DNA of 64,000 nucleotides from a virus. The notes under the pieces were generated by a model. The model saw only the letters and a list, made by a program, of their open reading frames with translations. It did not search any database and was not told where the DNA came from. Shown piece by piece: positions 577 through 48,812 of the stretch; within the stretch, counting starts at the first letter, position 1, and each line of letters begins with the position of its first letter. The position numbers and the translations under genes are program-made. The stretch lies in the IMG/VR virus record IMGVR_UViG_3300045988_159113; one strand, 5' to 3'.

Positions 577-578
577 TA

Positions 579-596: not shown

Positions 597-599
597 AAT

Positions 600-673
600 G
601 AACCTGTAGCTTAGTTGGTTAAAGCATTACACTTTTAATGTAAGGAGCCTGGGTTCAAATCCCAGCAGGTTCA
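600..673 (+). tRNA. tRNA-Lys (anticodon TTT)
   Basis: Cloverleaf read by eye: acceptor GAACCTG/CAGGTTC, D arm GCTT-AGTTGGTTA-AAGC, anticodon stem TTACA/TGTAA with loop CTTTTAA, T arm CTGGG-TTCAAAT-CCCAG, discriminator A. No encoded CCA. Confidence 0.9.
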
Positions 674-689
674 CAAATTTCTTTGTTTT

Positions 690-718
690 CCCCTTAGCTC
701 TTAGGAGCGGGGGTTTTT
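690..718 (+). terminator. GC-rich hairpin plus T5 between two tRNAs (terminator-like or processing element)
   Basis: CCCC(690-693) TTA GCTC(697-700) TTAG GAGC(705-708) GGGGG(709-713), followed by TTTTT(714-718). tRNA-Leu starts 2 nt later. Confidence 0.4.
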
Positions 719-719
719 A

Positions 720-801
720 GTCGAGATGGCGTAATCGGTAGCCGCTGAAGTCTTAAACATTTCTGCTGTAAAGCGTGCGGGTTCGAGTCCCGCTCTCGAC
801 A
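720..801 (+). tRNA. tRNA-Leu (anticodon TAA), long-variable-arm type
   Basis: Acceptor GTCGAGA/TCTCGAC, 3-bp D stem GCG/CGC, anticodon stem GAAGT/ATTTC with loop CTTAAAC, variable arm GCT-GTAA-AGC, T arm GCGGG-TTCGAGT-CCCGC, discriminator A. Confidence 0.9.
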
Positions 802-1091
802 CAATTATTGCGGTTAACAACCGAACGTAACTTCCACACAAGCCTCTTGCATTAATAAAAGATGTAAAGCTAAACAGGTGTGCTGAATCCGAAAGAAATC
901 CGACGAAAAATTACGTAATAAGTAATCGGAGAGTAAATAGAGGAGTGAGTCTAATGTTGCGAAACTTAGATTTATCGTATAATGTCAGCATTTTTCGATA
1001 ACTTTATTGGAGAATCTTAAAAGTTATCATTTTTAGATAGGTAACAACGACTTTAAGGTAGATAGCCCTGTCTTGAAATCGTATAAAGGCT

Positions 1092-1163
1092 TGCCCTATG
1101 GTGTAATTGGCAACACGACAGATTTTGGTTCTGTAATTGGAGAATCGTACTCTTCTAGGGCAA
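1092..1163 (+). tRNA. tRNA-Gln (anticodon TTG) with non-canonical T loop
   Basis: Acceptor TGCCCTA/TAGGGCA (7 perfect bp), D arm GTGT-AATTGGCA-ACAC, anticodon stem ACAGA/TCTGT with loop TTTTGGT, 4-nt variable loop, T arm GGAGA-ATCGTAC-TCTTC. The T arm has A54/T58 instead of T54/A58 and A53-T61 instead of G53-C61, so a covariance model may score it low. Confidence 0.55.
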
Positions 1164-1218
1164 CACTATATATAATGTACACGCGTACATTATTATATAT
1201 ACTTGCAATTTATAAAAA

Positions 1219-1388: not shown

Positions 1389-1427
1389 TAGATATTCTTG
1401 TCATACTTTGTATGACAAGAATATCTA
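1389..1427. repeat. perfect 18-bp inverted repeat with 3-nt loop
   Basis: TAGATATTCTTGTCATAC-TTT-GTATGACAAGAATATCTA. It lies in the non-coding gap before the first PF2 gene. An A-run follows it on the + strand, so it is not a classical terminator. Confidence 0.8.
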
Positions 1428-1483
1428 AAAAAGGCTAATTGTATTATTATCTATACTGTTTGAAGATTTAAAAATTTTAAGAT

Positions 1484-24323: not shown

Positions 24324-25287
24324 TGTATATTATCTTTTCTATGATCAGGTAAATCAAGAATTGATAAAGCTGGATCTGTTGGAACTTTCTGACTTACCAA
24401 ACAAAACATGTTTCGTAACTTTCCCGTTTGTGCTCAATGGTAAATATGCGCACAATGGTCATGACTTGGTTAACTTAATTAACGAGTATAACGGAAGAGT
24501 CTATAACAGGTATCAGGATGAGTACAAGATCAAACCGCCGTATTTCATAAAATGTGCATATAATCAAATCGGACGTGTTGATGTTTCCATATTCTACAAG
24601 AAAAAACATTTCTTGTTTTATGATAATAAGATAAGCAATCCTGACGATTATCCTATTATTGATTCTTTCGTTTCCAAGCATAAGTCTCTACCATTCTGCG
24701 GTGTCTATATGAAGAAACTTCATGAGTTCATTATGGATAACCAAATCGTGCGCCCAAATCCAAAACCAGGAGGCATTTATTTCAATGTTGTGATAAAGGG
24801 CAAGATTTACAAGGCTTATATTTGTAAAGAAAGTACCGATCATTGTTTTCTCTCTTTCCCATTAACAGGAAACAGATATGCCTTTGATTGTTATAATATA
24901 AGCGAGGAAGAAGTGTTGAATGTTCTTGGTATCAATGAGTGGCAAGGTGATTGGCCTGAAACACCAGAAAGAAAAGTGTATGTTCTGCTTGATTATATCA
25001 ACGAGAACCGTATGGCTGGACCTGTTATCGACAGGTTAAAGATAGACGGCAATAAGATCATCACATCTTTTGCTGAGTTCGAGATAAAGCAAACGAAGAC
25101 TGGCAAGTGGTATATTCGGGGAAATATTGAGCAGATATGCTTGTTGTTTAAAGTTCCTAATATTACGGAACTCAAACATCTTGTCAACAAGATAATTGGC
25201 AACAAGATACGGCACGGTGTCTTTCCGGAATGTGATTCGAGAGAAGAGGTCACGAAACTTTTAAAATCAATTAGAGATGACAGATAA
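24310..25287 (+). CDS. PF6 family protein (member M)
   Basis: 325 aa. YKIKPPYFI, DWPETPERKVYVLLDYIN, TGKWYIRGNI, GVFPECDSREEVTKLL. Confidence 0.85.
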   Translation: MNADNVYYLFYDQVNQELIKLDLLELSDLPNKTCFVTFPFVLNGKYAHNGHDLVNLINEYNGRVYNRYQDEYKIKPPYFIKCAYNQIGRVDVSIFYKKKHFLFYDNKISNPDDYPIIDSFVSKHKSLPFCGVYMKKLHEFIMDNQIVRPNPKPGGIYFNVVIKGKIYKAYICKESTDHCFLSFPLTGNRYAFDCYNISEEEVLNVLGINEWQGDWPETPERKVYVLLDYINENRMAGPVIDRLKIDGNKIITSFAEFEIKQTKTGKWYIRGNIEQICLLFKVPNITELKHLVNKIIGNKIRHGVFPECDSREEVTKLLKSIRDDR

Positions 25288-26236
25288 GTTTTATTATCTT
25301 TTTTATGACCGTATAAACGGAAAGATAATCAGATTAGATTTGTTTAACGCTAACCTATCAATAGGCGAAGCCGTTTCTGTGATGTTTCCATGGGCAATTG
25401 ATGGGAGGCTTACACATAATGATGGCGAAGTAGTGATGGCGATCAACAAACACAACCAAAGAACATATAAACGATATATTGAGAAGTTTAAAATCAGACC
25501 TCCGTACTATATCGAAAATGTGCTCGGCGTTCGTGGTATGATCAATGCTATTGTTACTTACAAAAGTAGGTCACTTTTGCTTAAAGAGTACATGCTTGTC
25601 GACAAGTATAATGATGTCGCTCCATTCTTTGCTAAATATGACTATGCGAAGTTTAACATCTGTTATATGATAGGGCTTCACAAGTATATCTTGGACAATC
25701 AGATCATACGTCCTAGCAAACATAATAGCGGAATGTTTAGCGTCATGATACTTGGTAAAAGCTATATCGCGAATGTTGTAGTTTCACTAGATCATTGCTT
25801 CCTTAACATAGAAGGTATATCAAACGGAGCAGTCTTCAATCATTATAAAATAGGTAAATCAAAAGTCCTTGAAGTACTCAGGATAGACAAATGGTACGGA
25901 GACTGGCCAGAGACTACCGAAGACAAGGTGTACGAGTTAATCAACTATATCAACGAGTGCAGAAGCTCAAGCACTAATCCTGATAAAGTTGAGATAAGCG
26001 GAAATGAAATCATCACAGATTTTGCTAGACTTGAAATAAAGCAAAGCAAAAATGGTAAATGGTATATCAGTGGCTCGCTCGAGAATATATTGAAATTGTT
26101 TCATATTGACGACCAAGTCGAGTTGAAGCAAATGGTCAATAACCTTTTCGGATCTAAGCGACGCGCTGGTGTATTCCCTGAACTTGATTCTCGTGATGAT
26201 GTTATTAAACTAATCAAAGTAACGCAACATGAATAG
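25277..26236 (+). CDS. PF6 family protein (member N)
   Basis: 319 aa. FKIRPPYYI, DWPETTEDKVYELINYIN, NGKWYISGSL, GVFPELDSRDDVIKLI. Stop is TAG, with a TGA 2 codons further on. Confidence 0.85.
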   Translation: MTDKFYYLFYDRINGKIIRLDLFNANLSIGEAVSVMFPWAIDGRLTHNDGEVVMAINKHNQRTYKRYIEKFKIRPPYYIENVLGVRGMINAIVTYKSRSLLLKEYMLVDKYNDVAPFFAKYDYAKFNICYMIGLHKYILDNQIIRPSKHNSGMFSVMILGKSYIANVVVSLDHCFLNIEGISNGAVFNHYKIGKSKVLEVLRIDKWYGDWPETTEDKVYELINYINECRSSSTNPDKVEISGNEIITDFARLEIKQSKNGKWYISGSLENILKLFHIDDQVELKQMVNNLFGSKRRAGVFPELDSRDDVIKLIKVTQHE

Positions 26237-27281
26237 AGAAACTGATTTCTTTTATCTATTTTACAATAGAACCAACAAATACTTGGTACAGTTGGATCTG
26301 TTGAGTAATTACTCGGAGAATATATCTTGTCGAACAGTAGATGGCGATAAGTACAAGCTGTATGGCAAGTATTTCAAAGCAGAGGATGAGTTTATCCAAG
26401 CTGTTAATGATTTCAATGTGTCGATGGCTCAAAAGTATTTTAGCAAGTTCAAGATTCTTGCACCGTATAGATTAGAGTGTCAGCTCTTATTCTATATAGA
26501 CGGAGGGGCAGACTACAACATATACATCTCAACACATGACAGATGCTATCGTTTCATTTATGGCAAGGAAACGCCTGCAAACTTTATAGAATTTGCACGT
26601 ATCCGCAATATAGAGCCGGGGACTTTCAATCTTCGCTATATGCTGAACCTACATACTGCACTTTTGAACTCTGCAGTGTTCAGGGCTGGATATGACAGGG
26701 GCAAGTTCTGTTATACTGTAAACTGTGGAGAAAATTCTTTCTGTGCTCATATCGCGAAGTCAAGAGTAAGAGCTGGCTGTTATTTCCTAGCCTTTAGTCC
26801 TAATATTCCGAATGACTACGTCTTCGCGTATTACAACGTCAATAGGCAAAACATCAAGGATCTCTTGACTGTAGACTCCTGGACCGGAAAGTGGCCCGAG
26901 GATGTCGAGTCGACAATCTACGCGATCATGCAGTATATGAACAGAACATATATCGCAAATGCCAATTTTAGTTTTGTAATAGATGATGATGCTGTCATGT
27001 TCAACGGTACCAGATACCCATTCAAACAAGCAAAGAAGGGAGGCTGGTTCTTGTCTGGCAATATTGAGAAGATACTTCAGATGTTCGGTCTTGATAGTGT
27101 CGACTCATTACGTAAGACAGCGAACCTATATCTTGGAGCAAAGAACAGACCGGGAGTTTTCCCAGAATGCGACACAAAAGAAGAGTTGATAAACTTGATT
27201 AAAATGTTCAAAGATGGAGAGCGAAAAATCAAAATTTCCGGTTCTTCTGTACTTCGATCCATGCAGCCGGATGATCTATAA
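26229..27281 (+). CDS. PF6 family protein (member O)
   Basis: 350 aa. FKILAPYRL, KWPEDVESTIYAIMQYMN, KGGWFLSGNI, GVFPECDTKEELINLI. An unusually long tail overlaps the next member by 68 nt. Confidence 0.8.
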   Translation: MNRETDFFYLFYNRTNKYLVQLDLLSNYSENISCRTVDGDKYKLYGKYFKAEDEFIQAVNDFNVSMAQKYFSKFKILAPYRLECQLLFYIDGGADYNIYISTHDRCYRFIYGKETPANFIEFARIRNIEPGTFNLRYMLNLHTALLNSAVFRAGYDRGKFCYTVNCGENSFCAHIAKSRVRAGCYFLAFSPNIPNDYVFAYYNVNRQNIKDLLTVDSWTGKWPEDVESTIYAIMQYMNRTYIANANFSFVIDDDAVMFNGTRYPFKQAKKGGWFLSGNIEKILQMFGLDSVDSLRKTANLYLGAKNRPGVFPECDTKEELINLIKMFKDGERKIKISGSSVLRSMQPDDL

Positions 27282-28233
27282 GTTCCCGCTTATCTGGACA
27301 ACGGACATAGAACACTTGAAGTTCGAGATACTTATTGAAGAACTCGGATCAAGTACTGTATGGTTTCGTGGTATGAAATATGAGAACACGGAGGAACTCC
27401 TGCGTTTTATATCCAAAGAGAACGAGAAGACGCGTAAAAAGTATAAAGAGAAATATGGCATTTTTCCGCCATATGTTATTACTCAATGTACTTTTAACAC
27501 GACTTATTCAATTTGTATTAGAACGCACAATTGCGAAAACTATGCTGTGTTTTTATTTGAAGATGGGGAAAAGCTTCCTGAGTGTATTGCAAATGGAGAA
27601 GTTCCTGTTTTTCGCAATGCAGAAATTAAAGCTAGCGATAGGTTTAATATTAAAACACTCATCAAGTTGCATAACTCCATCGTCTCAAATTATGTAGTAC
27701 GTCCTGCGATTTATTTGGATTGTTGTGATAGGTATGTTGCAAAAATAAACGGCACGCTTTATGATGCTAGGATTGTTAGAGTTGCTGATAATACTTTCTA
27801 TTTACAGTTTTTCACGATTCCCAGCATAAAACTTTTTAAGTATTATGACATAAAGTTTACAGAATACGAGCCTATCATATCTCATGACTTCCGTTTGATG
27901 GATGGCTATATCCCTGTGGATAATAAAGAGCACATCCTAAAAATTCTTGACTTCATCAATAGTAAGCGCTGTGCTATGGAGTATGCATCGTTTACTATCA
28001 AAAGCGATACTATCCTAAGTAATGGATGTATGTTCAAGATAGTCCAAACGCCAACTGGCAAGTGGTACATAAAGGGTAAGAGTGACGACTTCCCTAAGGT
28101 GTTCAAGTGCTCAAGTATGGAGGAGATCAGAGAGTTTGCGATCAAGCTATTCGGGCGAAGGATTACTGGAGTATTCCCAGAGTGCAACACCAGGGAAGAG
28201 TTGTTAACTTTAATCGAGAAGATGAAGAAATGA
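27214..28233 (+). CDS. PF6 family protein (member P)
   Basis: 339 aa. YGIFPPYVI, ILKILDFIN, TGKWYIKGKS, GVFPECNTREELLTLI. Confidence 0.8.
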   Translation: MESEKSKFPVLLYFDPCSRMIYKFPLIWTTDIEHLKFEILIEELGSSTVWFRGMKYENTEELLRFISKENEKTRKKYKEKYGIFPPYVITQCTFNTTYSICIRTHNCENYAVFLFEDGEKLPECIANGEVPVFRNAEIKASDRFNIKTLIKLHNSIVSNYVVRPAIYLDCCDRYVAKINGTLYDARIVRVADNTFYLQFFTIPSIKLFKYYDIKFTEYEPIISHDFRLMDGYIPVDNKEHILKILDFINSKRCAMEYASFTIKSDTILSNGCMFKIVQTPTGKWYIKGKSDDFPKVFKCSSMEEIREFAIKLFGRRITGVFPECNTREELLTLIEKMKK

Positions 28234-29255
28234 TAATCCAACTTTTAGAAGAACCGACTTATCTATACTTTGACCAGATGGTGATGAAAGTCTACCAGCT
28301 GCCAATAATGCATACGATACAGTTGTCGGCTGTTGAAGTTTACAACGTACGACATCCTCAAGGCATCATGTCAATGCGCGAACGAGAAGTTGACCTATGG
28401 TTTCGAGATGCGCATTACAACACGATCGGTGATCTCTTGAAGTATATAAACAAGAGAAACGAGAGAATGTTCAAATATTACGTTGAGAAATTCGGAATTT
28501 CTCCTGCTTACTTTTTGGACCAAGAAGCTGATGCGGATAATGTAGTCATTACCACTATTGTAACACATCTCGATTCTTACCGTTTTGAATGTGATGGTCG
28601 GATAGATTATGAAATAATAGAGAAGACTATTCCCGTTTTCAGTTATGCAGACATCAAAGAAGATGACCGTTTTGGCGCAGAAGTTCTGGTGAAGATGCAC
28701 AACTCCATCATCAAAAACCAGGTGATAAAACCCACCATATACAAGAACGTTTACACCGTAAGAATGGGCGATTTGTTTGCAAAAGCAAAAATCGATACGA
28801 TGGATATAGGTAGGGTGCCTGGCTATCATTTGCATTTTCTATCTTATCATGATAGGATTGTTTTTGATTATTACCACATACGATATTCTGACTTTGCTTA
28901 TGTGATCCCTGATACCGAATTGAGTAACGGGATACCTGTTGGCCCAGAAGAAGATATCAGAAAGCTCATCAACTATATCAATATGACATATTGCGTTTGT
29001 GAGGGCTCAAAGTTTAGTGTGAATGATAATATTATCATCTGCAATAAGCACAAGCTTGAAATTACACAAACGCGAAACGGCAAATGGTATATCAAGGGTG
29101 ATGTTTTACTCGCTTTTGGGTTGGATAGTATGGAGGCAATCAGAAAGGCTGCGTCTGATCTCTTCGGTAAAAAGAGGATGAACGGAGTATTCCCGGAATG
29201 CGATTCCAAGGAAGACCTCCTGCGACTCGTTGAAGTTCTTAGAAAATACAGGTGA
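28230..29255 (+). CDS. PF6 family protein (member Q)
   Basis: ORF track 28107..29255. ATG 28230 (MIIQLLEEPTYLYFDQ) is ATGA-coupled and aligns with family N-termini. FGISPAYFL, IRKLINYIN, NGKWYIKGDV, GVFPECDSKEDLLRLV. Confidence 0.8.
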   Translation: MIIQLLEEPTYLYFDQMVMKVYQLPIMHTIQLSAVEVYNVRHPQGIMSMREREVDLWFRDAHYNTIGDLLKYINKRNERMFKYYVEKFGISPAYFLDQEADADNVVITTIVTHLDSYRFECDGRIDYEIIEKTIPVFSYADIKEDDRFGAEVLVKMHNSIIKNQVIKPTIYKNVYTVRMGDLFAKAKIDTMDIGRVPGYHLHFLSYHDRIVFDYYHIRYSDFAYVIPDTELSNGIPVGPEEDIRKLINYINMTYCVCEGSKFSVNDNIIICNKHKLEITQTRNGKWYIKGDVLLAFGLDSMEAIRKAASDLFGKKRMNGVFPECDSKEDLLRLVEVLRKYR

Positions 29256-30525: not shown

Positions 30526-30616
30526 CATACTTGAACCAACAGACAACACGGCCGTTGTAAAAGATCCATATTACGACGAACCGATGGCAATGTTGGATAG
30601 AATAAAACAAGAATGA
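30404..30616 (+). CDS. hypothetical protein
   Basis: 70 aa. MSEKNLIEQRQEANLRLLEIIQDYLEKYPSLRFGQALINL reads as a compact helical protein. Confidence 0.55.
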   Translation: MSEKNLIEQRQEANLRLLEIIQDYLEKYPSLRFGQALINLNILEPTDNTAVVKDPYYDEPMAMLDRIKQE

Positions 30617-31227
30617 AAGTATATCGAATACAACAGAAGAATTTTAATTCCATAACGCAGTCAACACTTAGTGTAGAAGATGGGACGAAGTTTCAATTTA
30701 TACCAACAGGAAAAGAGGACATGTACAATGTCGCCTATATCACTGATGGCAGTAAAGAGAACGTCATAAGGTGTAAAAGATTAGTGAACTCTTTTCAGTT
30801 TCTACTTCCTTATGATAAGCTCCTTATCATTCTCAAGGACTTCATGGGCAAGCCGTTCGAGGAATCGACGGAGATAAAGATCAATGATTTCTATCTCTCT
30901 TGTTTCCCAAAGGGGCATCCAGAAAGACCGCTTGAGTTCTATCATGTGCTTGACTTTACAGGAACCGCGTTCAAGGTAATACGTGTAAGGATAACGGATC
31001 CATTAAACAAGATATATAATCCTCGGATTGAGTACACAACAATCGCACCGCTTACTTTGTTCAGAAGCCAGACGGGAATAGCTAGAGGTCCAGAGACTGC
31101 GCTGTTTACTGACTTCATGAAAAAAGAAGATTTCGAGCGTTATATGGATATCATAACTCTTACACTGAAAGGAGACACCAATCGTTTAATGACAAATGAA
31201 ATACTTTACAATTCAGGAGCTGACTAA
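30613..31227 (+). CDS. hypothetical protein
   Basis: ATGA-coupled ORF, 204 aa. C-terminal FTDFMKKEDFERYMDIITL weakly resembles the PF6 module. Confidence 0.7.
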   Translation: MKVYRIQQKNFNSITQSTLSVEDGTKFQFIPTGKEDMYNVAYITDGSKENVIRCKRLVNSFQFLLPYDKLLIILKDFMGKPFEESTEIKINDFYLSCFPKGHPERPLEFYHVLDFTGTAFKVIRVRITDPLNKIYNPRIEYTTIAPLTLFRSQTGIARGPETALFTDFMKKEDFERYMDIITLTLKGDTNRLMTNEILYNSGAD

Positions 31228-31651
31228 TTCATAGACAGCTAAAGCAAAGGGTCTTGATAATACTCCGGACCCACAACAGGAGCACAATCTCCGCAGGCTT
31301 ATCGAGGAGCTGCTCGATCCATTACGTGAAGCTTGGGGTAAACCGATAAAGGTAACCTCCGGGTTCCGTGGTTTCGCACTTAATAAATGCGTTAAAGGAT
31401 CAAAAAGTTCGGCTCATTGTATAGGAGCAGCTGCGGATCTTGTACCTGTAGATGGGAAGATGCCACAATTCAAAAGATTCGTGAGAGACTGGTTGACTGA
31501 AAACAATATCAAGTTTGACCAGTATATAGATGAGAGAAGTGGAAACAGTGAGTGGGTACATCTGGGACTTATCAACCAGTCAGGAAGACAGAGGAGACAA
31601 TTTCTGATGTATCGCAACAAGACGTATGTATCATTGAAGGATATATGTTAA
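31196..31651 (+). CDS. Peptidase_M15_3-type (VanY-like zinc D,D-/L,D-peptidase) endolysin with an in-frame TAG at codon 13
   Basis: The ORF track only reports 31460..31651. Reading from ATG 31196 in the same frame gives MKYFTIQELTNS[TAG 31232-34]TAKAKGLDNTP...LLDPLREAWGKPIKVTSGFRGFALN...SSAHCIGAAADL...EWVHLG. This is the full-length family signature (F...E...S.TA...g.DN.P, SG[FY]R, H..G.A.D, W.H) running across the TAG. Confidence 0.75.
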
Positions 31652-32214
31652 AAATCGGAACGCATGATTCAGCGACAGGCGAGAAAGCCATGTCGTGGTG
31701 GATGAAGCTCTTGACTCCTTTTTGGAAGACACAGAGCAAGACAATCAAAGAGCAGTATGAGGCAGGCTGCCGTATGTTTGACATTAGAGTCAAGAAGGTA
31801 GGCCGCGAGTATTACTGCGCTCATGGTTTGTTTGTAACAGAGAAGACAGCGCACGAGATCTTCACAGAGCTTGACAATCTCGGGGGATGCTATGTTGCTG
31901 TCACTTGGGAAGGAAAAATGACAACGGACGAGGAGAAGGCTTGTTTCAAAAGTTGGTATCAGAGAGTAAGGAAGAAATACAAAAACACATTCTGGGGGCC
32001 TCTCGCTACTAAGTACGGGAAGAAAGGGCTAAAGGTTAGCTGGATCAATCTCTACGTAGGCGATAAGTTCGAAGAGAATGTGCAAGGATTCTATCCTCTT
32101 GATGGTCGTAATATTTGGACATATATTTTCCCCGTTCCTTATGTAATTAATAAAATATACAAGAGCCCGTTCAAGTTCAACGAAGACTATTTCGTACTTG
32201 TCGATTTCTTGTAA
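31645..32214 (+). CDS. PI-PLC X-domain-like phosphodiesterase
   Basis: ORF track 31552..32214. ATG 31645 overlaps the lysin stop. MLKIGTHDSATGE...TQSKTIKEQYEAGCRMFDIRV...CAHG parallels the bacterial PI-PLC catalytic blocks (GTHDS ... G.R.FDIR ... HG). Confidence 0.6.
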   Translation: MLKIGTHDSATGEKAMSWWMKLLTPFWKTQSKTIKEQYEAGCRMFDIRVKKVGREYYCAHGLFVTEKTAHEIFTELDNLGGCYVAVTWEGKMTTDEEKACFKSWYQRVRKKYKNTFWGPLATKYGKKGLKVSWINLYVGDKFEENVQGFYPLDGRNIWTYIFPVPYVINKIYKSPFKFNEDYFVLVDFL

Positions 32215-32241: not shown

Positions 32242-32403
32242 ATGAAAAAGTTATTTCTTGCTTTCGCAGTGATGGCTGTTCTCGCCGCATGCGGTGGCCA
32301 TAAGGCCAAAAGCGCAAGTAGTGTTAACGATTCGACAGCTGACAGCGTGACAGTTGTTGACTCTCTGGTAATTGACACAACCCTTATTGACAGCGTAAAC
32401 TAA
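32242..32403 (+). CDS. small lipoprotein (53 aa)
   Basis: MKKLFLAFAVMAVLAAC|GGHK: signal peptide with lipobox LAAC. Below the ORF-track cutoff. Followed directly by a terminator. Confidence 0.65.
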   Translation: MKKLFLAFAVMAVLAACGGHKAKSASSVNDSTADSVTVVDSLVIDTTLIDSVN

Positions 32404-32410
32404 AAAGTAA

Positions 32411-32438
32411 AGCCCGGGTATAACTCGGGCTATTTTTG
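32411..32438 (+). terminator. rho-independent terminator
   Basis: AGCCCGG-GTATAAC-TCGGGCT (with a G-T pair), followed by ATTTTTGT. Confidence 0.7.
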
Positions 32439-32533: not shown

Positions 32534-32743
32534 TTGATGAGTAGAAAGAGAAGAAACAATTTCACAAGTCTCGAACTTGATAAACGCAAGTATGTCGTAG
32601 TGGATGAAGAAGACGGGAGCATATCCATCTATAACATCACACCGCGATATCATATCTGCATTGTCAATTATAAGTCGAAAGACCAGGAGTACGCGCGAAA
32701 TTGTATCATGGAAACTTTAGACTATTTGAAAAGAGACATATGA
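32534..32743 (+). CDS. hypothetical protein
   Basis: ATG ORF, 69 aa. Confidence 0.55.
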   Translation: MMSRKRRNNFTSLELDKRKYVVVDEEDGSISIYNITPRYHICIVNYKSKDQEYARNCIMETLDYLKRDI

Positions 32744-33516
32744 GAAGAGTGAGACATTTAACCGTTAGAAGCCGCAATGTATCATGTCGGCCTCTACGAG
32801 AGTTAGAGGTTCCCGTTCGTACTCTGTACAGAATGGGAAGTGCCACACCGATTGAACGAATCTTTCGTTCTCCTTTACGTTATCTTGAGATAAACACAGC
32901 CCATGGCTGTCTTATCTCTGGTGATAAGATAAAGATGAAAAGAGCTTTCAATGAGTGTGGCGTACATACTGCGGAGTGGTTCATCGCTCATAACAGAGTC
33001 GATGCCAGAGGTAAAATTCAGCGTTGGCTTCCAACCTGGGGTGTCATCATTGCAAAGAGGTTGAACTCATCGGGTGGCCGTGGTATCTATCTTATACGAA
33101 ATGTTGGAGACTTGGACCAGATCCACGACGACATCACGAAGTATATTTTCGAGAGATATTACAACTACACGAAAGAGTACCGCGTACATGTCAGCAAATT
33201 CGGATGTTTCTATACATCAAGAAAGATGTTGAGAAATACCGCAACTGTGAGATGGCACAGACATTCTGAAAACTCCGTTTTCATAAATGAAGAAAACCCG
33301 ATGTTTGACAAGCCGACTAACTGGGACGAGATAGTCGCCGATTGTATCAAAGCCCTCAAGCATATGCAGCTTGACATCGCAGCGTTCGATGTCAAGTGTA
33401 CAAGAGACGGGCGCTTTATACTCTTGGAGAGTAATTCCGCACCAGCACTTGGTGAGCAAGGCATCGAGAAATACAAAAACGAATTAAAGAAAATCATAAA
33501 CGATAAATTAAGATGA
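32740..33516 (+). CDS. ATP-grasp ligase (RimK-like)
   Basis: ORF track 32701..33516. ATG 32740 is ATGA-coupled. GVIIAKRLNSSGGRGIYLI, KEYRVHV, and DIAAFDVKCTRDGRFILLESNSAPAL are typical ATP-grasp blocks. Confidence 0.7.
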   Translation: MRRVRHLTVRSRNVSCRPLRELEVPVRTLYRMGSATPIERIFRSPLRYLEINTAHGCLISGDKIKMKRAFNECGVHTAEWFIAHNRVDARGKIQRWLPTWGVIIAKRLNSSGGRGIYLIRNVGDLDQIHDDITKYIFERYYNYTKEYRVHVSKFGCFYTSRKMLRNTATVRWHRHSENSVFINEENPMFDKPTNWDEIVADCIKALKHMQLDIAAFDVKCTRDGRFILLESNSAPALGEQGIEKYKNELKKIINDKLR

Positions 33517-34361
33517 GTGAGTTCGGTTATACAAACTATCACACAATTTACAAGAGTGTTGGAGATGTTGATCATGCGATGGGTGAGGATTCTTGTTTTC
33601 ATACCATCACCAAGGATTCCGGTTTGAAGATGATGAACAATGTGATCACTGTGCGGTTCTATGCTACCATTGACTACATACGGGATAATCAGAACAATAA
33701 CTATTGCCCGTTTAGCGAGGACGAGATCCGCCAGTATCTGCACATTATCCAGACTTACAGACCCTTTGAGTTCAAGCTTGACACATGTTTCGGAACCGCA
33801 AACGATATAGAAGATAGCGACGACGACTACGACGATGATGTTGAGTACAAGTACTATGAGCTTGAGTTGAAGATCAACGACTCGGTACTCTGGAACAAGT
33901 TCATCTTGAAAATGGTTCGCCCGTTATATGAATATCCGTTCAACTTCGCACTTCGCGATACCTTCAAAATGATGACTATCCCGAAGTTCAGAGAGTATGG
34001 GTTGTTCAATATCTATATGATGGTCGGCTATATCTTCAAGACTACTAGCTACATCTCAGTTTGTGATGATCAGTTTGTTTGTTCTTGTTATCGGAACATT
34101 CCGCAGTTCATGAAGAAGGCAGACCTCATCAAGCGTATTGAGAGTATGAGCCAGGCACATTTGGCAGGAGAGACAAGAACTCCTGAATTCAATAATGTTG
34201 TCTCATATTCTGAGAGTGATTGCGGTGACTTCGGCGACTGGCTCGACAATCGATACTTCAACACAACAAACGTGAGAGAGGTGGAGTACTGGTTCGACGA
34301 GGAGATGTTCGAGGAGAGAGTAGAAATTTATTCTGAACTTATAGAAAGATTTGTGAAGTAA
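33513..34361 (+). CDS. hypothetical protein with an acidic insert
   Basis: ATGA-coupled ORF, 282 aa. Contains DIEDSDDDYDDDVEY. No recognisable domain. Confidence 0.7.
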   Translation: MSEFGYTNYHTIYKSVGDVDHAMGEDSCFHTITKDSGLKMMNNVITVRFYATIDYIRDNQNNNYCPFSEDEIRQYLHIIQTYRPFEFKLDTCFGTANDIEDSDDDYDDDVEYKYYELELKINDSVLWNKFILKMVRPLYEYPFNFALRDTFKMMTIPKFREYGLFNIYMMVGYIFKTTSYISVCDDQFVCSCYRNIPQFMKKADLIKRIESMSQAHLAGETRTPEFNNVVSYSESDCGDFGDWLDNRYFNTTNVREVEYWFDEEMFEERVEIYSELIERFVK

Positions 34362-35008
34362 TGAGAAAATTGTATTGTGTAGGATGGGGTAGAAGCTATG
34401 CCAACTGGTTCCGTGATGTTGAATTGACCGGAGATTTTGAGACTCCCAAGTTTCAGATCGAAGATGCGGATATTGTCCTCTTTACTGGTGGTGAGGATGT
34501 GAGCCCTTATCTTTATGGTAAGGCTCCACACCCTACGAGTTATTGGACAACATCAAGAGACGAGATGGAAGTTGAAGCCTTCAAGCGTATACGTCCCGAT
34601 GCTCTGGCATACGGTACATGTCGTGGCCTGCAACTGCTTAACGTTATGAACGGCGGCATTCTCTGTCAGGATGCTACTGATCACTGGTGTTCAGGTACGC
34701 ATGAGATACACAACGACACTGAGTCGTACCGTATCACATCGCTGCATCATCAGATGGTGTATCCTTTCGATCTCAATCCTGACTATTATGACATTCTGTT
34801 TTGGAGTACTCCACGCAGTAAGCATTACGAAGGGGATGGGATCGATCCGACACTCTACCACAAGTTTGGCGAGCCTGAGATTGTGCTTTATCACAAGCCA
34901 GGATTACCCAAGTGTCTTGGAGTGCAAGGACACCCTGAGATGATGTCTCCCAATAGCCCGGTTGTGAACATGTTGAATAACTTAATAGATGACATTCTTA
35001 AAAAATAA
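34361..35008 (+). CDS. class I glutamine amidotransferase-like / peptidase C26 (gamma-glutamyl hydrolase-like)
   Basis: TAATG-coupled. Nucleophile elbow GTCRGLQLLNV and catalytic GVQGHPE. Confidence 0.7.
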   Translation: MRKLYCVGWGRSYANWFRDVELTGDFETPKFQIEDADIVLFTGGEDVSPYLYGKAPHPTSYWTTSRDEMEVEAFKRIRPDALAYGTCRGLQLLNVMNGGILCQDATDHWCSGTHEIHNDTESYRITSLHHQMVYPFDLNPDYYDILFWSTPRSKHYEGDGIDPTLYHKFGEPEIVLYHKPGLPKCLGVQGHPEMMSPNSPVVNMLNNLIDDILKK

Positions 35009-35012
35009 AAAG

Positions 35013-35924
35013 ATGGATTTAAACTTTTCTGAAAAACTTTATGAGCTTCTCGGCTCTGGTGTTAGTTCACGTTACAATTTTAACAACTTCCTTGATGACG
35101 ATGAACCCGATGATAATTTCGGTGAATTCCTGGAGAAGGTGAAGATCGGATCCGATCCTGAGCTGTTTATCATAAACACAAAGACAGGATCTGTTGTGTC
35201 TTCTATCGGATTGATACCTGGAGTGAAGGGTGCGCCTTGGGTGGACAAGTCGTGGGTCAAAGGTTATGGCTTGGAGACTGACAACATCCTTGCGGAGTTT
35301 AATATTCCACCCGCTACATCTTGTGAAGCTTTTGTCGACAGTATGGAGTTCATGAAGGATTACATAGACAAGTTTGTCAAGTCTAAGAATCCAGACCTTG
35401 GCATCGCGCACAAGGCAAGTGCAATGGTGCCAGACGATCAACTTCAGAGCGAAGAGGCGAAGCTTTTCGGGTGCAGTGTCGACTACAACGCATACACAGA
35501 AAACGCAAACCCAAAACCTTGCGGAGAAGCTACGAACCTAAGATCGATAGGTTGTCACATTCATGTTTCATATCCACGCAAATCTCAAGTAAAGAGTATA
35601 AGCTTGGTTAAGTATATGGACGTATTCGTAGGTATACCTTCTGTGATTCTTGATGCAGGAGAGGATGCAGTAAAACGTCGTGAACTGTACGGAAAGGCTG
35701 GATGTTTCAGGCTTACCAGGTATGGGATGGAATACCGACCTTTATCTGGCCGGTTCCTGGCAAACACAGATCTTGAAGAGTTCATGTACAAGGCAACACT
35801 TCACGCCCTCGGCGCTTGGTTCTATGATTATAGACTCCCAAGTGCTGATGATGTTCAGCGTTGCATCAATACAGGAGACATTAATCTCGCAATCCAACTC
35901 ATCAATGATTACAAACTTGTTTAA
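35013..35924 (+). CDS. phage-type COOH-NH2 ligase (amidoligase)
   Basis: ORF track 34989..35924; ATG 35013 lies just after the upstream stop. IGSDPELFI, YGLETDNILAEFNIPPA, LRSIGCHIHVS, and CFRLTRYGMEYRPLS resemble the phiEco32-like COOH-NH2 ligase family. Confidence 0.6.
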   Translation: MDLNFSEKLYELLGSGVSSRYNFNNFLDDDEPDDNFGEFLEKVKIGSDPELFIINTKTGSVVSSIGLIPGVKGAPWVDKSWVKGYGLETDNILAEFNIPPATSCEAFVDSMEFMKDYIDKFVKSKNPDLGIAHKASAMVPDDQLQSEEAKLFGCSVDYNAYTENANPKPCGEATNLRSIGCHIHVSYPRKSQVKSISLVKYMDVFVGIPSVILDAGEDAVKRRELYGKAGCFRLTRYGMEYRPLSGRFLANTDLEEFMYKATLHALGAWFYDYRLPSADDVQRCINTGDINLAIQLINDYKLV

Positions 35925-35951
35925 CTTTTAGAAAAGAAAGAGAGGTCTATT

Positions 35952-37316
35952 ATTTGTGGCATTTTTGGATACATAAAGTCTAAACCAGAACCGTTTGACT
36001 TTATGGAGTTCTGCACTTTAGGAGTGCATAACGATACAAGAGGAAAAGATTCTGTCGGTATTTATATCGATGGACAAACTGAGTATTATTGTAAGGGCAA
36101 GAACAATAGCCTGTTCTCGGAGTTTATCTCCAAGAGCAGGCTATTGCAGTCTGTAGAGGTTGCACAAGTTGCATATGGTCATGACCGTGCAGCTTCCATT
36201 GGCACCGTATCTATTGAGACTGCACAGCCCGTAGTGTTAAAAGAAGATGACAAGATCACATATGTGCTTATGCACAATGGCACCATCTATAATTATGAGG
36301 ATCTAGCCAAAAAGTATATTCCAGATGTGGATATCAAGGGGATGACTGATTCCCAGGTTATGGCGCGCATATTCTACAAAGCAGGATATGATGCACTCAA
36401 TGAATATATCGGTGGTGCCGTGTTTGCCATTATCGATTACCGCGGAGAAAAACCAAAGTATCTATTCTGGCAAGGGCACAGTAAGAACACGCAGTATTCA
36501 CAAACCAGCCAGCAGGAAGAACGCCCGCTGTTCTTCTTGAAGAGTAAAGGCGAGATGATGTTTTCATCTCTTGATACATATCTTGACGCATTCAGGAGAC
36601 AATCAACAAAGTTGGTGCCGACTCCAAACTTGCTGATAGAGTATGATCCAGAGACTGAGGAGTTTATCTCACTTGAAGAGTATGACAGGAAGAATTGCTT
36701 TCAGACTAAGCCATACGTCGCAACCACTACCACATATTACGGAAACAACAACTATGGAAGTAGTACGTGTAATTATAGCCATAGCACTAATCGCGGCACT
36801 TCTTGCTATTCAAGCGGTTATGTAAACACAGACACGCACACCGGACAATGTCGCAGAGGCGCAAGTCTTTTGCATGGCAGCTATAGCATCAGCACCTATG
36901 GCAACATATCGGAAAGCGCCAACCAGAACGGATCGAATTATATGACCATGTGGTTCTTCAATGGTATACTCATGAAGAACGAGCAAGCATTCATATATCT
37001 CACAAAGTTCTGTAAGGAGTGCGGCATTAGTATTGATGAGTGTTTCAAATGGTATGATGACTTGGTTTATTATCTCTCGCCTTACCCTTATCGCGAGAAG
37101 AAGATCGGAGGAATTCCCTTCATGTTCAAAACCAATGATCCCGCAGGCGGTGAAGAGTACACAGGAGATGTACTTTATCCGTTTTCTACATACTCCAAGC
37201 GATATGTTAATGGTTCCTATGTATCAACAAGGACATCAACATTTATCGAATCGCTTGAAGCGTATAACAAAACAAAAGACGATAAGTTAGATATAGACGT
37301 TTTAATGAAAGTATAA
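35952..37316 (+). CDS. class II (Ntn) glutamine amidotransferase with C-terminal extension; non-ATG (ATT) start
   Basis: The ORF track starts at internal ATG 36003. The frame is open from 35925 and reads I-CGIFGYIKSK...RGKDSVGIY...HNGTIYNY, the canonical MCGIxG N-terminus. The only initiator-like codons before Cys are ATT 35949/35952. AAAGAGAGG lies at 35937-45. Confidence 0.7.
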   Translation: MCGIFGYIKSKPEPFDFMEFCTLGVHNDTRGKDSVGIYIDGQTEYYCKGKNNSLFSEFISKSRLLQSVEVAQVAYGHDRAASIGTVSIETAQPVVLKEDDKITYVLMHNGTIYNYEDLAKKYIPDVDIKGMTDSQVMARIFYKAGYDALNEYIGGAVFAIIDYRGEKPKYLFWQGHSKNTQYSQTSQQEERPLFFLKSKGEMMFSSLDTYLDAFRRQSTKLVPTPNLLIEYDPETEEFISLEEYDRKNCFQTKPYVATTTTYYGNNNYGSSTCNYSHSTNRGTSCYSSGYVNTDTHTGQCRRGASLLHGSYSISTYGNISESANQNGSNYMTMWFFNGILMKNEQAFIYLTKFCKECGISIDECFKWYDDLVYYLSPYPYREKKIGGIPFMFKTNDPAGGEEYTGDVLYPFSTYSKRYVNGSYVSTRTSTFIESLEAYNKTKDDKLDIDVLMKV

Positions 37317-47969: not shown

Positions 47970-48225
47970 TTTCTTTGGTCATACAATCAGAGCGACGCAA
48001 AAACAGCTTGAGCTATTGCTTGGATTTGATCATAATGCAAGCAAAGACGGGAAAAGTCGGTGCATCTGGCATAAGACAATCGACGATATGCCTTTTTGTG
48101 TGTATGATTGGAAGATGGAAGCAGAGCCAGACGAAACTATAGACTGGCACATTGGAGCGAGAAACGAAGAAGAAAGTAAAAAGATACAACGAATTTTGAA
48201 TAATGTAAAAACTAATGAATTATGA
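47935..48225 (+). CDS. hypothetical protein
   Basis: ATG ORF, 96 aa, overlapping the primase end by 35 nt. Confidence 0.5.
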   Translation: MSTSNTSGVPNSFFGHTIRATQKQLELLLGFDHNASKDGKSRCIWHKTIDDMPFCVYDWKMEAEPDETIDWHIGARNEEESKKIQRILNNVKTNEL

Positions 48226-48812
48226 GACCACCTTTTTTTAAACCATCATGTAAAGACACATCGTGCAAGGTAACATTCCCCGATGGCCACACATAGGAAT
48301 TTGAGACAATCGAACAGGCAGCAGAAGCAACTGGTGTATCACTCGCAGCATTGAAGAAGCGCTGCAAGTATCCAGGGAAGGAAACGAAAGACGGGATACT
48401 CTGCGAGTATCTCAACCCTGCTATGCTCCGCAAGGTTCGTAATAAAGCGAACAGAAGCAAAGGCTGCTCTTTCGAGCGCGATATTATCAATAGGCTCAAA
48501 GAGGAAGGATTTGAGGAATGTGTATCCTCTCGTCAGTACTCTCGAGCTATGGATAAGGCAAAGATTGATGTATGCGATCCAAGCGGTAAACTTCCGGTAT
48601 ATATTCAAGCGAAGTATACGACAAGCACGCCACAGTATACAAAGATCAAGAATGCCTGCCCGTTTGATGATAAGCCTTTCGTGACTATCTGGAAGCAGGC
48701 AACTAGAGATGGGAGTAACAGTCCCGGAACGATTGTGATGTTAGACTACGAGTTTTTTATTCAACTTTTAAAAAGTTTTGTCAAGGATGATTGCAATAAT
48801 AGCAGTATATGA
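48222..48812 (+). CDS. HTH + Hjc/RecU-like PD-(D/E)XK Holliday-junction resolvase with an in-frame TAG at codon 25
   Basis: The ORF track gives 48351..48812 with a TTG start. The same frame opens at ATG 48222 (ATGA overlap with the upstream stop): MRPPFFKPSCKDTSCKVTFPDGHT[TAG 48294-96]EFETIEQAAEATGVSLAALKKRC..., then KGCSFERDIINRLKEEGFE...KIDVCD...VYIQAKY (E...D...QxK nuclease core). Confidence 0.65.

What the first reader, a model, noticed from the sequence alone, without database searches (positions are those of the whole stretch)
31196..31651. In-frame TAG inside an otherwise intact M15 endolysin: candidate amber recoding or readthrough
Seen in the sequence:
- From ATG 31196 the frame reads MKYFTIQELTNS-TAG-TAKAKGLDNTPDPQQEHNLRRLIEELLDPLREAWGKPIKVTSGFR...SSAHCIGAAADL...EWVHLG.
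- The Peptidase_M15_3 N-terminal signature (F..eEl..S.TA...giDN.P) spans both sides of TAG 31232-34 without a frame change.
- There is no ATG, GTG or TTG between the TAG and Met 31460. Met 31460 lies downstream of the SG[FY]R block and of the H..D zinc ligands.

Interpretation:
- If TAG terminates, no functional lysin can be made.
- A single clean stop with perfect conservation on both sides is the pattern reported for gut phages that reassign TAG (usually to Gln) in late and lysis genes.
- Alternatives are a sequencing error or a very recent nonsense mutation.
Basis: partly seen in the sequence, partly recalled or inferred. Interest (0 to 1): 0.85.

Follow-up and report, generated by a model that had tools for sequence, protein, structure and literature searches.

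The report
Amber-gated endolysin in recoded gut phage
The stop codon inside this phage cell-wall-digesting enzyme is real and conserved, and it is almost certainly read as glutamine by a phage suppressor tRNA; this is a known trick of large crAss-like gut phages, seen here as a single "gate" codon on two late-acting genes that sit among ordinary early genes.

Summary
ATG 31196 to TAA 31651 encodes an intact Peptidase_M15_3 endolysin with one in-frame TAG at codon 13. It is neither an error nor a fresh nonsense mutation.

- **Conservation:** nine further sequences carry the same TAG. They are five IMG/VR contigs, three ENA/Logan contigs and a 77%-identical homologue whose synonymous sites are saturated. 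The ORF is under strong purifying selection (pN/pS about 0-0.08).
- **Meaning of TAG:** one relative has a second TAG at codon 109. The window has CAG there, and 120 of 120 homologues have Gln.
- **Window context:** the window is the standard-code replication module of a roughly 175-197 kb crAss-like (probably Zeta-group) phage. It has 86 plus-strand genes, 20,120 codons and only two in-frame TAGs. The second TAG (48294, codon 25) lies in a RusA-like resolvase and is also conserved.
- **Late genes:** in close relatives the opposite-strand late module has 70 TAGs in 4,214 codons.
- **Decoder:** a tRNA(CUA) is present in a relative that carries the same TAG-lysin, and in six other contigs, with a compensatory stem change. 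None lies inside the window.

Verdict: genuine TAG-to-Gln recoding (code 15), probably acting as a translational gate. It is a new member of a known kind.

The parts
31196..31651 (+). Endolysin gene (151 codons, Peptidase_M15_3 / LAS zinc peptidase) that can be translated in full only if TAG at codon 13 is read as sense
   Evidence: Pfam PF08291 at 58.4 bits, residues 2-99. A profile of homologues hits PDB 1LBU across the H74...D81 zinc-ligand block. R58, H74, D81, D108, Q109, W120 and H122 are invariant in 22 homologues. pN/pS is about 0-0.08 against 7 close relatives.
31232..31234 (+). In-frame TAG (codon 13) of the endolysin, the proposed 'amber gate'
   Evidence: Present in the window and in L001, L002, L003 and L004-L008. 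The local context TCA TAG ACA GCT is identical in all nine, including the 77%-identical L003.
48222..48812 (+). Second recoded gene: RusA-like Holliday-junction resolvase with an N-terminal HTH-like segment (196 codons), immediately after the primase
   Evidence: phrog_244 RusA-like, E 2.4e-5. Homologues of about 180 aa carry the N-terminal 22-26 residues and align across the TAG position. The 24 codons upstream of the TAG show 4 synonymous and 0 non-synonymous changes in 6 relatives.
48294..48296 (+). In-frame TAG (codon 25) of the resolvase gene
   Evidence: Conserved in L050-L055. After it the next in-frame start is TTG 48351, which would cut the conserved N-terminal motif. The homologous gene of the distant relative MT835492.1 has a TAG at a different 5' position, codon 6.
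30613..31227 (+). Upstream ORF (204 aa, no family hit) that overlaps the lysin start by 32 nt, implying co-transcription
   Evidence: ORF list. No Pfam hit.
31645..32214 (+). Downstream gene (189 aa, unknown function, 'GTHDS' motif). Its ATG overlaps the lysin stop (ATGTTAA), so it may be translationally coupled.
   Evidence: Sequence. No Pfam hit. Weak phrog_384 hit, E 5.5e-4.
32242..32403 (+). Small lipoprotein-like gene (MKKLFLAFAVMAVLAACGG...), possibly a lysis accessory or spanin-like protein
   Evidence: ORF translation. It is the only signal-peptide-like hydrophobic segment near the lysin. crAss-like phage records annotate 'endolysin | putative lipoprotein' side by side.
32411..32431 (+). 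Terminator-like GC-rich hairpin followed by a T run, closing the lysin-containing transcription unit
   Evidence: Terminator scan: 9-bp stem with 6 GC pairs, then ATTTTTGTAT. This is a consensus match only.
600..1164 (+). tRNA block: Lys(UUU) 600-674, Leu(UAA) 720-802, Gln(UUG) 1092-1164. None reads TAG, so the decoder lies outside the window.
   Evidence: ARAGORN. Rfam at gathering threshold and a permissive scan of 1-1600.

Best explanation
The window is the standard-code replication and nucleotide-metabolism module of a large (about 175-197 kb) crAss-like gut phage. It probably belongs to the Zeta group and probably infects Bacteroidota.

**What the phage does.** It reads TAG as glutamine (genetic code 15) in its late genes.

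**Where the gates are.** Two late-acting enzymes sit inside the otherwise standard-code module and appear to be co-transcribed with it. They are the M15 endolysin (31196-31651) and a RusA-like resolvase (48222-48812). Each carries a single TAG close to its 5' end (codons 13 and 25).

**Proposed mechanism.**
- Early in infection, host RF1 terminates at these TAGs, so only 12- and 24-residue peptides are made.
- Later, a phage tRNA with anticodon CUA accumulates. It is encoded outside the window, on the opposite strand, among TAG-rich virion genes.
- That tRNA inserts Gln at TAG, and full-length lysin and resolvase are then made.

**Shown here.**
- The TAGs are in frame and conserved.
- Both ORFs are under purifying selection on both sides of the TAG.
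- TAG interchanges with CAG at an invariant Gln.
- Late genes of near-identical relatives are full of TAGs.
- A structurally sound tRNA(CUA) exists in the lineage.

**Inferred.**
- The window's own genome carries that tRNA.
- The tRNA is charged with Gln by the host GlnRS.
- The TAGs serve as a timing gate.
For: **1. Conservation.** TAG at codon 13 is present in L001-L003 and L004-L008. There are 7 distinct haplotypes among the 8 close sequences.

**2. Selection.** Of 33 variable codons, 26 are synonymous only. pS is 0.05-0.135 against pN 0-0.008. Against L003, pS is 0.875 and pN 0.146, yet the TAG is retained.

**3. Meaning of TAG.** L001 has TAG at codon 109, where the window has CAG and 120 of 120 homologues have Q.

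**4. Second gated gene.** The resolvase TAG at 48294 is conserved in 6 relatives, with 4 synonymous and 0 non-synonymous changes upstream. Homologues align across it. MT835492.1 has a TAG at codon 6 of the same gene.

**5. Module contrast.**
- The window has 2 TAGs in 20,120 codons, against 561 CAA/CAG.
- Three late ORFs in L047 have 70 TAGs in 4,214 codons, against 100 CAA and 28 CAG. L047 lies on contig 155535, where the lysin is 99% and PolB 98% identical to the window.
- These ORFs are homologous to TAG-laden late proteins of MT835492.1.

**6. Decoder.**
- tRNA(CUA) lies on contig 155098, the same contig as the TAG-lysin locus L007. ARAGORN finds it, and the Rfam tRNA model scores 47 bits, E 1e-7.
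- The same tRNA occurs in 6 more contigs from 6 samples, with a compensatory G-C to A-U change in the T stem.

**7. Literature.** TAG-to-Gln recoding of late and lysis genes in crAss-like phages is documented in bioRxiv 10.1101/2021.08.26.457843, PMC7886860, PMC9523058 and PMC12386605.
Against: - **No decoder in the window.** No tRNA(CUA), release factor or GlnRS lies in the window.
- **Evidence from relatives only.** The suppressor and the TAG-rich late module were seen only in relatives. The region around the suppressor comes from contig 155098. That contig is more divergent from the window upstream of the tRNA block (ORF1 is 58% identical).
- **Codon 13 does not identify the residue.** It is a variable position in the family (D 71, A 13, E 10, Q 5). 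Homologues mostly have Lys at the resolvase TAG position.
- **Weaker rationale for a lysis timer.** No holin was found next to the lysin, and the lysin has no signal peptide. Early cytoplasmic lysin might therefore be harmless.
- **TAG also ends genes.** TAG also ends four plus-strand genes. One is a paralogue whose C-terminus aligns with its siblings. TAG is therefore not purely a sense codon.
- **Timing untested.** Expression timing was not measured.
Confidence: 0.85

Rival explanations
1. Recent nonsense mutation or pseudogene. The lysin is dead in this genome, and another hydrolase does the work, for example the virion-associated M15/SLT protein seen in relatives.
For: A single stop at codon 13 would abolish the enzyme under code 11. 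Relatives encode a second peptidoglycan hydrolase with SGFR...H...D and SLT motifs.
Against: The TAG is shared by nine other sequences, including a 77%-identical homologue with saturated synonymous sites. pN/pS is about 0-0.08 downstream of the TAG, and all catalytic residues are intact.
Confidence: 0.02
2. Sequencing or assembly error at 31232-31234.
For: None beyond the prior that single-base errors occur. Raw reads are not available.
Against: The same codon is found in nine other contigs (IMG/VR, ENA, Logan), within 7 different haplotypes.
Confidence: 0.01
3. Leaky, context-dependent readthrough by host near-cognate tRNAs, without a dedicated phage suppressor in this particular genome. The TAG would then throttle the amount of lysin rather than switch it on.
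For: No suppressor tRNA lies in the window. The literature detects suppressor tRNAs in only about 40% of TAG-recoded phage genomes. MT835492.1 has hundreds of in-frame TAGs but no detectable tRNA(CUA) in its 121 kb.
Against: A conserved tRNA(CUA) exists in a relative carrying the same TAG-lysin and in six other contigs. Late ORFs with 18-30 TAGs each could not be made by low-efficiency readthrough.
Confidence: 0.07
4. TAG is decoded by the tRNA(CUA) but as an amino acid other than Gln, for example Lys or Tyr.
For: At lysin codon 13 the homologues have mostly D, A or E. At resolvase codon 25 they have mostly K. The aminoacylation identity of the tRNA was not tested.
Against: TAG replaces CAG at a position where 120 of 120 homologues have Gln. 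CAG is selectively depleted in TAG-rich late genes: 28 CAG against 100 CAA, compared with 299 against 262 in the window. The tRNA has U35, G2-C71, G3-C70, G10 and a weak 1-72 pair. These are GlnRS identity elements in E. coli (established knowledge, not tested here). Metaproteomics showed TAG = Gln in crAss-like phages (PMC9523058).
Confidence: 0.05

Closest known systems
TAG-to-Gln (genetic code 15) recoding of late and lysis genes in crAss-like and other gut phages (Ivanova 2014; Yutin 2021, PMC7886860; Borges 2021/2022, bioRxiv 10.1101/2021.08.26.457843; Peters 2022, PMC9523058)
   Same: - The host presumably uses the standard code.
- The replication module is in standard code.
- The late module on the opposite strand is dense with in-frame TAGs.
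- A phage tRNA(CUA) is present.
- A lysis gene is recoded.
- TAG aligns with Gln.
   Different: Borges et al. describe the structural and lysis genes of crAss-like phages as one contiguous recoded unit. Here the endolysin lies about 40 kb away from the late module. It sits inside the standard-code replication block and carries a single 5'-proximal TAG. A resolvase is gated the same way.
Zeta-group crAss-like phages (proposed family 'Echekviridae'; PMC7886860, PMC12386605)
   Same: - Relatives have contigs of 175-197 kb.
- The replication apparatus is complex, with DnaG-type primase, DnaB-like and SNF2-like helicases, PolB, NrdD/NrdG and dUTPase.
- There is a tRNA block at the start of the replication module.
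- One relative has an intron in a tRNA gene.
- Late ORFs are giant.
- The stop codon is reassigned mostly in late genes.
   Different: No TerL, MCP or portal phylogeny was done for this lineage, so the group assignment is an inference. The published Zeta descriptions that I read do not mention an amber-gated endolysin in the replication block.
Peptidase_M15_3 / LAS-family zinc peptidase endolysins of Bacteroides phages (e.g. B124-14, vB_BfrS_UZM3) and the S. albus zinc D-Ala-D-Ala carboxypeptidase 1LBU
   Same: The domain and its size are the same, as are the H-x6-D ... H zinc-ligand pattern and the SGFR block. Identity to Bacteroides and crAss-like phage endolysins is 43-51%.
   Different: I did not check the DNA of those homologues for in-frame stops. 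Among the sequences examined, only this lineage (window, L001-L008) has TAG at codon 13.
Recoded homing-endonuclease ORF inside an early-gene intron in Agate phages (Borges et al.)
   Same: A potentially harmful enzyme is embedded in an early, standard-code region. It is kept silent by in-frame recoded stops until the code change occurs.
   Different: That case uses a different stop codon (TGA to Trp), a different enzyme and a different phage clade.

Membership tests
Peptidase_M15_3 (LAS zinc peptidase) endolysin | Match to the Pfam PF08291 profile above the gathering threshold | tested here: met
   58.4 bits against a cut-off of 23.2, E 9e-16. Residues 2-99 align to profile positions 1-91 of 108.
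Peptidase_M15_3 (LAS zinc peptidase) endolysin | Zinc-ligand pattern H-x6-D plus a C-terminal His, and the SxxR block | tested here: met
   R58, H74, D81 and H122 are invariant in 22 homologues. The H74...D81 block aligns with 'SRHMYGHAADL' of 1LBU.
Peptidase_M15_3 (LAS zinc peptidase) endolysin | Peptidoglycan-cleaving activity and a role in lysis | not testable with these tools
   Only homology to annotated endolysins of Bacteroides and crAss-like phages is available.
Code-15 (TAG to Gln) recoded phage | In-frame TAGs inside conserved genes, kept under purifying selection | tested here: met
   Lysin codon 13 in the window plus nine other sequences, with pN/pS about 0-0.08. Resolvase codon 25 in the window plus six relatives.
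Code-15 (TAG to Gln) recoded phage | TAG aligns with Gln in homologues | tested here: met
   Codon 109 is TAG in L001 and CAG in the window, and Q in 120 of 120 homologues. Codon 13 itself is a variable position and gives no information.
Code-15 (TAG to Gln) recoded phage | Many in-frame TAGs in late or structural genes of the same genome | tested here: inconclusive
   Met in relatives whose lysin and PolB are 98-99% identical to the window: 30, 18 and 22 TAGs in three giant late ORFs of contig 155535. The window's own late module lies outside the 64 kb and could not be read.
Code-15 (TAG to Gln) recoded phage | Phage-encoded suppressor tRNA with anticodon CUA | tested here: inconclusive
   Absent from the window. 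Present on contig 155098, which also carries the TAG-lysin, and on six other contigs, with a compensatory stem change.
Code-15 (TAG to Gln) recoded phage | Protein-level evidence of Gln at TAG | not testable with these tools
   Metaproteomic proof exists only for other crAss-like phages (PMC9523058).
crAss-like phages, Zeta group | Replication block with DnaG-family primase, DnaB and SNF2 helicases, and PolA or PolB | tested here: met
   PHROG hits: primase 7.8e-47, DnaB-like helicase, DNA helicase (SNF2-type inferred) and Dda-like helicase. PolB with DYDVQSLYPS runs off the window end. The primase is 35% identical to crAss-like primases, with the resolvase adjacent as in cr113_1.
crAss-like phages, Zeta group | Genome of 145-192 kb | tested here: inconclusive
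   Relatives' contigs are 174,850, 175,157 and 197,477 bp. Their coordinates are consistent with circular permutation. The window's own genome length is unknown.
crAss-like phages, Zeta group | Placement within the Zeta clade in a TerL, MCP or portal phylogeny | not tested
   I could not reach the head-gene region of this lineage. The MCP-based scan returned 80 other clade members and none of the target contigs.
Programmed single-site readthrough without code change (MuLV gag-pol or Q-beta A1 type) | An isolated leaky stop with no dedicated suppressor tRNA, and no genome-wide use of that stop as sense | tested here: not met
   A dedicated tRNA(CUA) and 70 TAGs in 4,214 late codons are present in the lineage.

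The most novel reading that the evidence does not exclude
Single 5'-proximal amber codons are a selected design. They would act as translational 'gates' that let a phage keep late-acting, potentially harmful enzymes (endolysin, Holliday-junction resolvase) inside early or middle transcription units while delaying their synthesis until the suppressor tRNA accumulates. The resolvase has gained such a TAG at different codons (25 and 6) in lineages that are only 44% identical. This suggests the gate evolved convergently. The downstream overlapping genes (31645-32214 and the lipoprotein) might be gated indirectly through translational coupling.
Probability: 0.45. Interest if true: 0.6.

Novelty: new member of a known kind. 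Interest (0 to 1): 0.45.

Why it matters
Stop-codon recoding in gut phages is proposed to time late-gene and lysis-gene expression, but direct tests are scarce because most recoded genes carry many TAGs. Here each of two enzymes carries exactly one TAG near its 5' end, in an otherwise standard-code module. A single TAG-to-CAG swap, or supplying the cognate tRNA(CUA), would therefore test the timer hypothesis cleanly.

There is also a practical consequence. Code-11 annotation would miss the endolysin entirely and would truncate the resolvase. This matters for mining lysins from Bacteroidota phages.

Tried and rejected
- **Megablast against GenBank phages.** 5 kb around the lysin gave no match.
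- **phmmer against PDB.** The lysin gave no hit. A profile was needed.
- **Exact-pattern scan of IMG/VR with the window's tRNA-Lys.** 0 hits, one scan wasted.
- **First walk upstream of the window start (L036, L037).** Only the same three tRNAs appeared.
- **Walks downstream (L038-L043, L047-L049).** Late genes were found, but no tRNA.
- **Jump to the head-gene region with an alignment of 14 MCPs.** It returned 80 loci of other clade members and none of the six target contigs. None of the 80 had a tRNA within MCP plus or minus 10 kb.
- **ARAGORN with lowered thresholds and introns.** It gave about 130 spurious calls per 64 kb and was discarded. The one exception is a plausible 696-nt intron in tRNA-Leu of L036.
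- **Permissive Rfam scan of window 1-1600.** No extra tRNA-like element.
- **Handing in the TAG-to-Q resolvase to the representative search.** The post-TAG part was used instead.
- **Phage tRNA-Gln(UUG) as the TAG decoder.** Considered and rejected. It would need two wobble pairs and would read TAA better than TAG, and TAA is a common genuine stop here.
- **Backup stops after TAG-terminated genes.** They lie 2-13 codons downstream, but with n = 4 this cannot be distinguished from TAA- or TGA-terminated genes.
- **Holin search near the lysin.** Nothing was found except the lipoprotein.
- **Shared promoter motif ATAGTATAATTGCAA.** Two exact copies only, not enriched.
Full report
**1. Observation**

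ATG 31196 opens a frame that reads MKYFTIQELTNS, then TAG at 31232-31234, then TAKAKGLDN...SGFR...SSAHCIGAAADL...EWVHLG..., and ends at TAA 31649-31651. Under code 11 the only ORF in this frame starts at Met 31460, so no ATG, GTG or TTG follows the TAG before that point.

With the TAG read as a residue, the 151-aa product matches Pfam Peptidase_M15_3 at 58.4 bits (cut-off 23.2). The alignment covers residues 2-99 and therefore runs across codon 13. tblastn hits to endolysins of Bacteroides and crAss-like phages begin at residue 1. A profile of 22 homologues hits the zinc D-Ala-D-Ala carboxypeptidase 1LBU across the H74...D81 block. R58, H74, D81 and H122 are invariant. The enzyme is otherwise intact.

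**2. Not an error and not a fresh nonsense mutation**

The closest database proteins (98%, 97% and 77% identical) had been called with Q at position 13. Their DNA has TAG there in all three cases. They come from different samples: ERZ27280745, ERZ28575150 (a 175,157-bp contig) and SRR22974106. Five IMG/VR contigs of 117-197 kb also have TAG at codon 13.

- Among the eight close sequences there are 7 nucleotide haplotypes.
- Of 33 variable codons, 26 are synonymous only.
- pS is 0.05-0.135 and pN is 0-0.008.
- Against the 77% homologue, synonymous sites are saturated (pS 0.875, pN 0.146), yet the TAG and its context (TCA TAG ACA GCT) are unchanged.

The region downstream of the TAG is therefore translated, and the TAG itself has been maintained for a long time.

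**3. What TAG means**

The 175-kb relative L001 has a second in-frame TAG at codon 109. The window has CAG there, and all 120 best homologues have Gln in the motif FDQYIDE. Codon 13 itself is a variable position (D 71, A 13, E 10, Q 5), so it does not identify the residue.

In late genes of a close relative CAG is selectively depleted while TAG is abundant: TAG 70, CAA 100, CAG 28. In the window the counts are CAA 262 and CAG 299. This fits replacement of CAG by TAG. TAG = Gln is the best-supported reading. It agrees with metaproteomic proof in other crAss-like phages (PMC9523058).

**4. Context inside the window**

All genes are on the plus strand, and about 60.6 of 64 kb is coding under code 11. 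The window contains:

- a tRNA block: Lys-UUU, Leu-UAA, Gln-UUG;
- about 11 tandem paralogues;
- an amidoligase / GATase / ATP-grasp cluster;
- helicases, a DnaG-type primase and a RusA-like resolvase;
- a DNA methyltransferase, NrdD/NrdG, a Dda-like helicase and a dUTPase;
- a sigma-70-like factor and the start of a PolB.

This is a replication and nucleotide-metabolism module, not a late region. Among 86 genes and 20,120 codons there are only two in-frame TAGs. Stop usage is TGA 44, TAA 37, TAG 4. One TAG-terminated paralogue ends exactly where its siblings end, so TAG also works as a gene end in this module.

**5. A second gated gene**

The other in-frame TAG is at 48294-48296, codon 25 of a gene starting at ATG 48222 and ending at 48812, directly after the primase. 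Under code 11 it would start at TTG 48351, in the middle of a conserved N-terminal motif.

- Homologues of about 180 aa found in the 1.8-billion-protein representative library carry 20-26 residues N-terminal to the position of the first post-TAG residue. They align across the TAG (...TSCKATFKNGQTKEFSSIEEASK...).
- The TAG is conserved in six relatives. The 24 upstream codons show four synonymous and no non-synonymous changes.
- In the distant relative MT835492.1 (primase 42% identical, resolvase 44% identical), the same gene has an in-frame TAG at codon 6. No start codon follows it.

**6. Local organisation of the lysin**

The upstream ORF 30613-31227 overlaps the lysin start by 32 nt. The downstream gene begins at ATG 31645, overlapping the lysin stop (ATGTTAA). 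A small lipoprotein-like gene (32242-32403) follows, and then a strong terminator-like hairpin at 32411-32431.

The lysin therefore appears to be co-transcribed with standard-code neighbours. No holin-like membrane protein lies nearby.

**7. The rest of the genome, seen through relatives**

No GenBank phage is close at the DNA level. The primase is 35% identical to crAss-like phage primases and 42% identical to MT835492.1. MT835492.1 shows the architecture in extreme form: a plus-strand replication module almost free of TAG, and a minus-strand late module (63.7-119.7 kb) whose genes carry dozens of TAGs each.

In contigs whose lysin and PolB are 98-99% identical to the window:

- the opposite-strand late module starts about 8.4 kb after the PolB start;
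- its first three ORFs (at least 1,451, then 1,179 and 1,584 codons) have 30, 18 and 22 in-frame TAGs;
- they are homologous to the TAG-laden giant proteins of MT835492.1.

Relatives' contig lengths (174,850, 175,157 and 197,477 bp) and their coordinates are consistent with a circularly permuted genome of about 175-197 kb. Together with PolB, NrdD, dUTPase, giant late ORFs and a tRNA-gene intron in one relative, this fits the Zeta group of crAss-like phages (PMC7886860, PMC12386605). I could not do the TerL/MCP phylogeny.

**8. The decoder**

No tRNA(CUA) lies in the window, in the 10 kb upstream of the window-start equivalent (L037), or in about 30 kb downstream.

The last available scan reached contig 155098 at 161,887-182,279 and found a tRNA with anticodon CUA. 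This contig also carries the TAG-lysin, which differs from the window's gene by only 6 nt.

- Its anticodon loop is CUCUAAC.
- ARAGORN detects it, and the Rfam tRNA model gives 47 bits, E 1e-7.
- It lies about 17 kb upstream of the window-start equivalent, on the opposite strand.
- It sits among TAG-rich genes for an LRR tail-type protein and a virion M15/SLT hydrolase.

The same tRNA lies 10 nt downstream of a conserved 123-aa gene in six further contigs from six samples. Two of these carry a compensatory G-C to A-U change in the T stem. Its A1-U72, G2-C71, G3-C70, G10 and U35 are GlnRS identity elements in E. coli. That is established knowledge and was not tested here.

**9. Mechanism**

- **Shown:** conserved in-frame TAGs in two functional genes; TAG equals Gln at an invariant site; a TAG-rich late module and a sound tRNA(CUA) in the lineage.
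- **Inferred:** early in infection RF1 terminates at codons 13 and 25; once the suppressor tRNA accumulates, charged by host GlnRS, full-length lysin and resolvase are made. The single 5' TAGs would thus act as translational gates on late-acting enzymes that are transcribed with earlier genes.
- **Weak points:** the window's own suppressor was not seen; there is no holin next to the lysin; timing was not measured.

**10. Comparison and novelty**

This is the phenomenon described for crAss-like and other gut phages: late and lysis genes recoded TAG to Gln, with suppressor tRNAs detected in only about 40% of such genomes.

The difference is in placement. Borges et al. describe the crAss-like structural and lysis genes as one contiguous recoded unit. 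Here the endolysin and a resolvase sit in the standard-code replication block, each with one 5'-proximal TAG. A comparable case is the recoded homing endonuclease inside an early-gene intron in Agate phages.

I rate this a new member of a known kind, with moderate interest. It offers an unusually clean single-codon test of the recoding-as-timer hypothesis.

Noticed in passing
window 17609-29255 (+): Tandem array of about 11-12 paralogous ORFs of 260-380 aa, 20-46% identical to each other. They share a conserved C-terminal motif G.K.R.GVFPECDS.EE.IKL. No Pfam family matches. One member (25277-26236) ends in TAG, followed two codons later by TGA.
   Followed up: partly
window 600-1164; L036 1026-1804; L037 10515-10793: The tRNA block Lys(UUU)-Leu(UAA)-Gln(UUG) is variable between relatives. 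In L036 ARAGORN predicts a 696-nt intron in the anticodon loop of tRNA-Leu(UAA). The window has a 290-nt spacer between Leu and Gln. In L037 the two tRNAs are 4 nt apart.
   Followed up: partly
window 1-70; L036 1-403: A very GC-rich 70-nt element (GGAGCGCGTCGCCGGCGTGGCGGCTCACGCGTTAGCGTGAG...) sits in a 40%-GC genome and is conserved in L036. In L036 it is preceded by several short direct repeats (GTAACATTTTTGGTA x2, GTGTGCAAAAATAGAAAC x2, GATGCTCGTTTCG x2). It may be an origin or terminus region, or a structured RNA.
   Followed up: no
window 61927-62766 (+): A phage-encoded sigma-70-family factor (Pfam regions 2, 3 and 4). Its stop overlaps the start of the PolB gene (ATGA at 62763-62766). 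It may be a regulator of middle or late transcription.
   Followed up: partly
window 32701-38534 (+): A cluster of ATP-grasp, Peptidase_C26 / GATase, COOH-NH2 ligase, GATase_6/7 and Amidoligase_2 genes directly downstream of the lysin operon. It resembles phage peptide-ligase or amidoligase modification systems.
   Followed up: partly
window 31645-32214 (+): A 189-aa protein whose start overlaps the lysin stop. It begins MLKIGTHDSATGEK, and the GTHDS motif is reminiscent of PLC-like phosphodiesterases. No Pfam hit. It might be a lysis accessory.
   Followed up: partly
window 14543, 17638, 26234, 47967 (TAG stops): Four plus-strand genes, including the primase, end in TAG. The next TAA or TGA follows 2-13 codons later. 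Under suppression these proteins would gain short C-terminal extensions late in infection.
   Followed up: yes
L037 8854-9654 (-): In the 197-kb relative, a minus-strand gene for a protein with two winged-helix-like repeats has one in-frame TAG (YLAII-TAG-QYMN, parallel to YLTMRQYEN in the first repeat). It lies just upstream of the window-start equivalent.
   Followed up: partly
L137 12642-13907 (-); L136 2-601 (+): A virion-type peptidoglycan hydrolase with an M15-like SGFR...H...D block and a C-terminal SLT lytic-transglycosylase motif. It carries 11 in-frame TAGs and lies close to the suppressor tRNA. The lineage therefore has a second, heavily recoded hydrolase.
   Followed up: no
L044-L046 (MT835492.1, 121,623 bp): An unannotated GenBank 'Bacteriophage sp.' record. 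Its minus-strand half (63.7-119.7 kb) can be read only with TAG as sense, giving ORFs of up to 3,401 codons with more than 100 TAGs. ARAGORN finds five tRNAs and no CUA suppressor. The record is probably incomplete, because its MCP cluster reaches a 150,814-bp contig.
   Followed up: partly
window 581-595 and 1221-1235 (+): Two exact copies of ATAGTATAATTGCAA flank the tRNA block, with a 2-mismatch copy at 29332. The motif is not enriched over shuffles. It could be a promoter-like element.
   Followed up: partly
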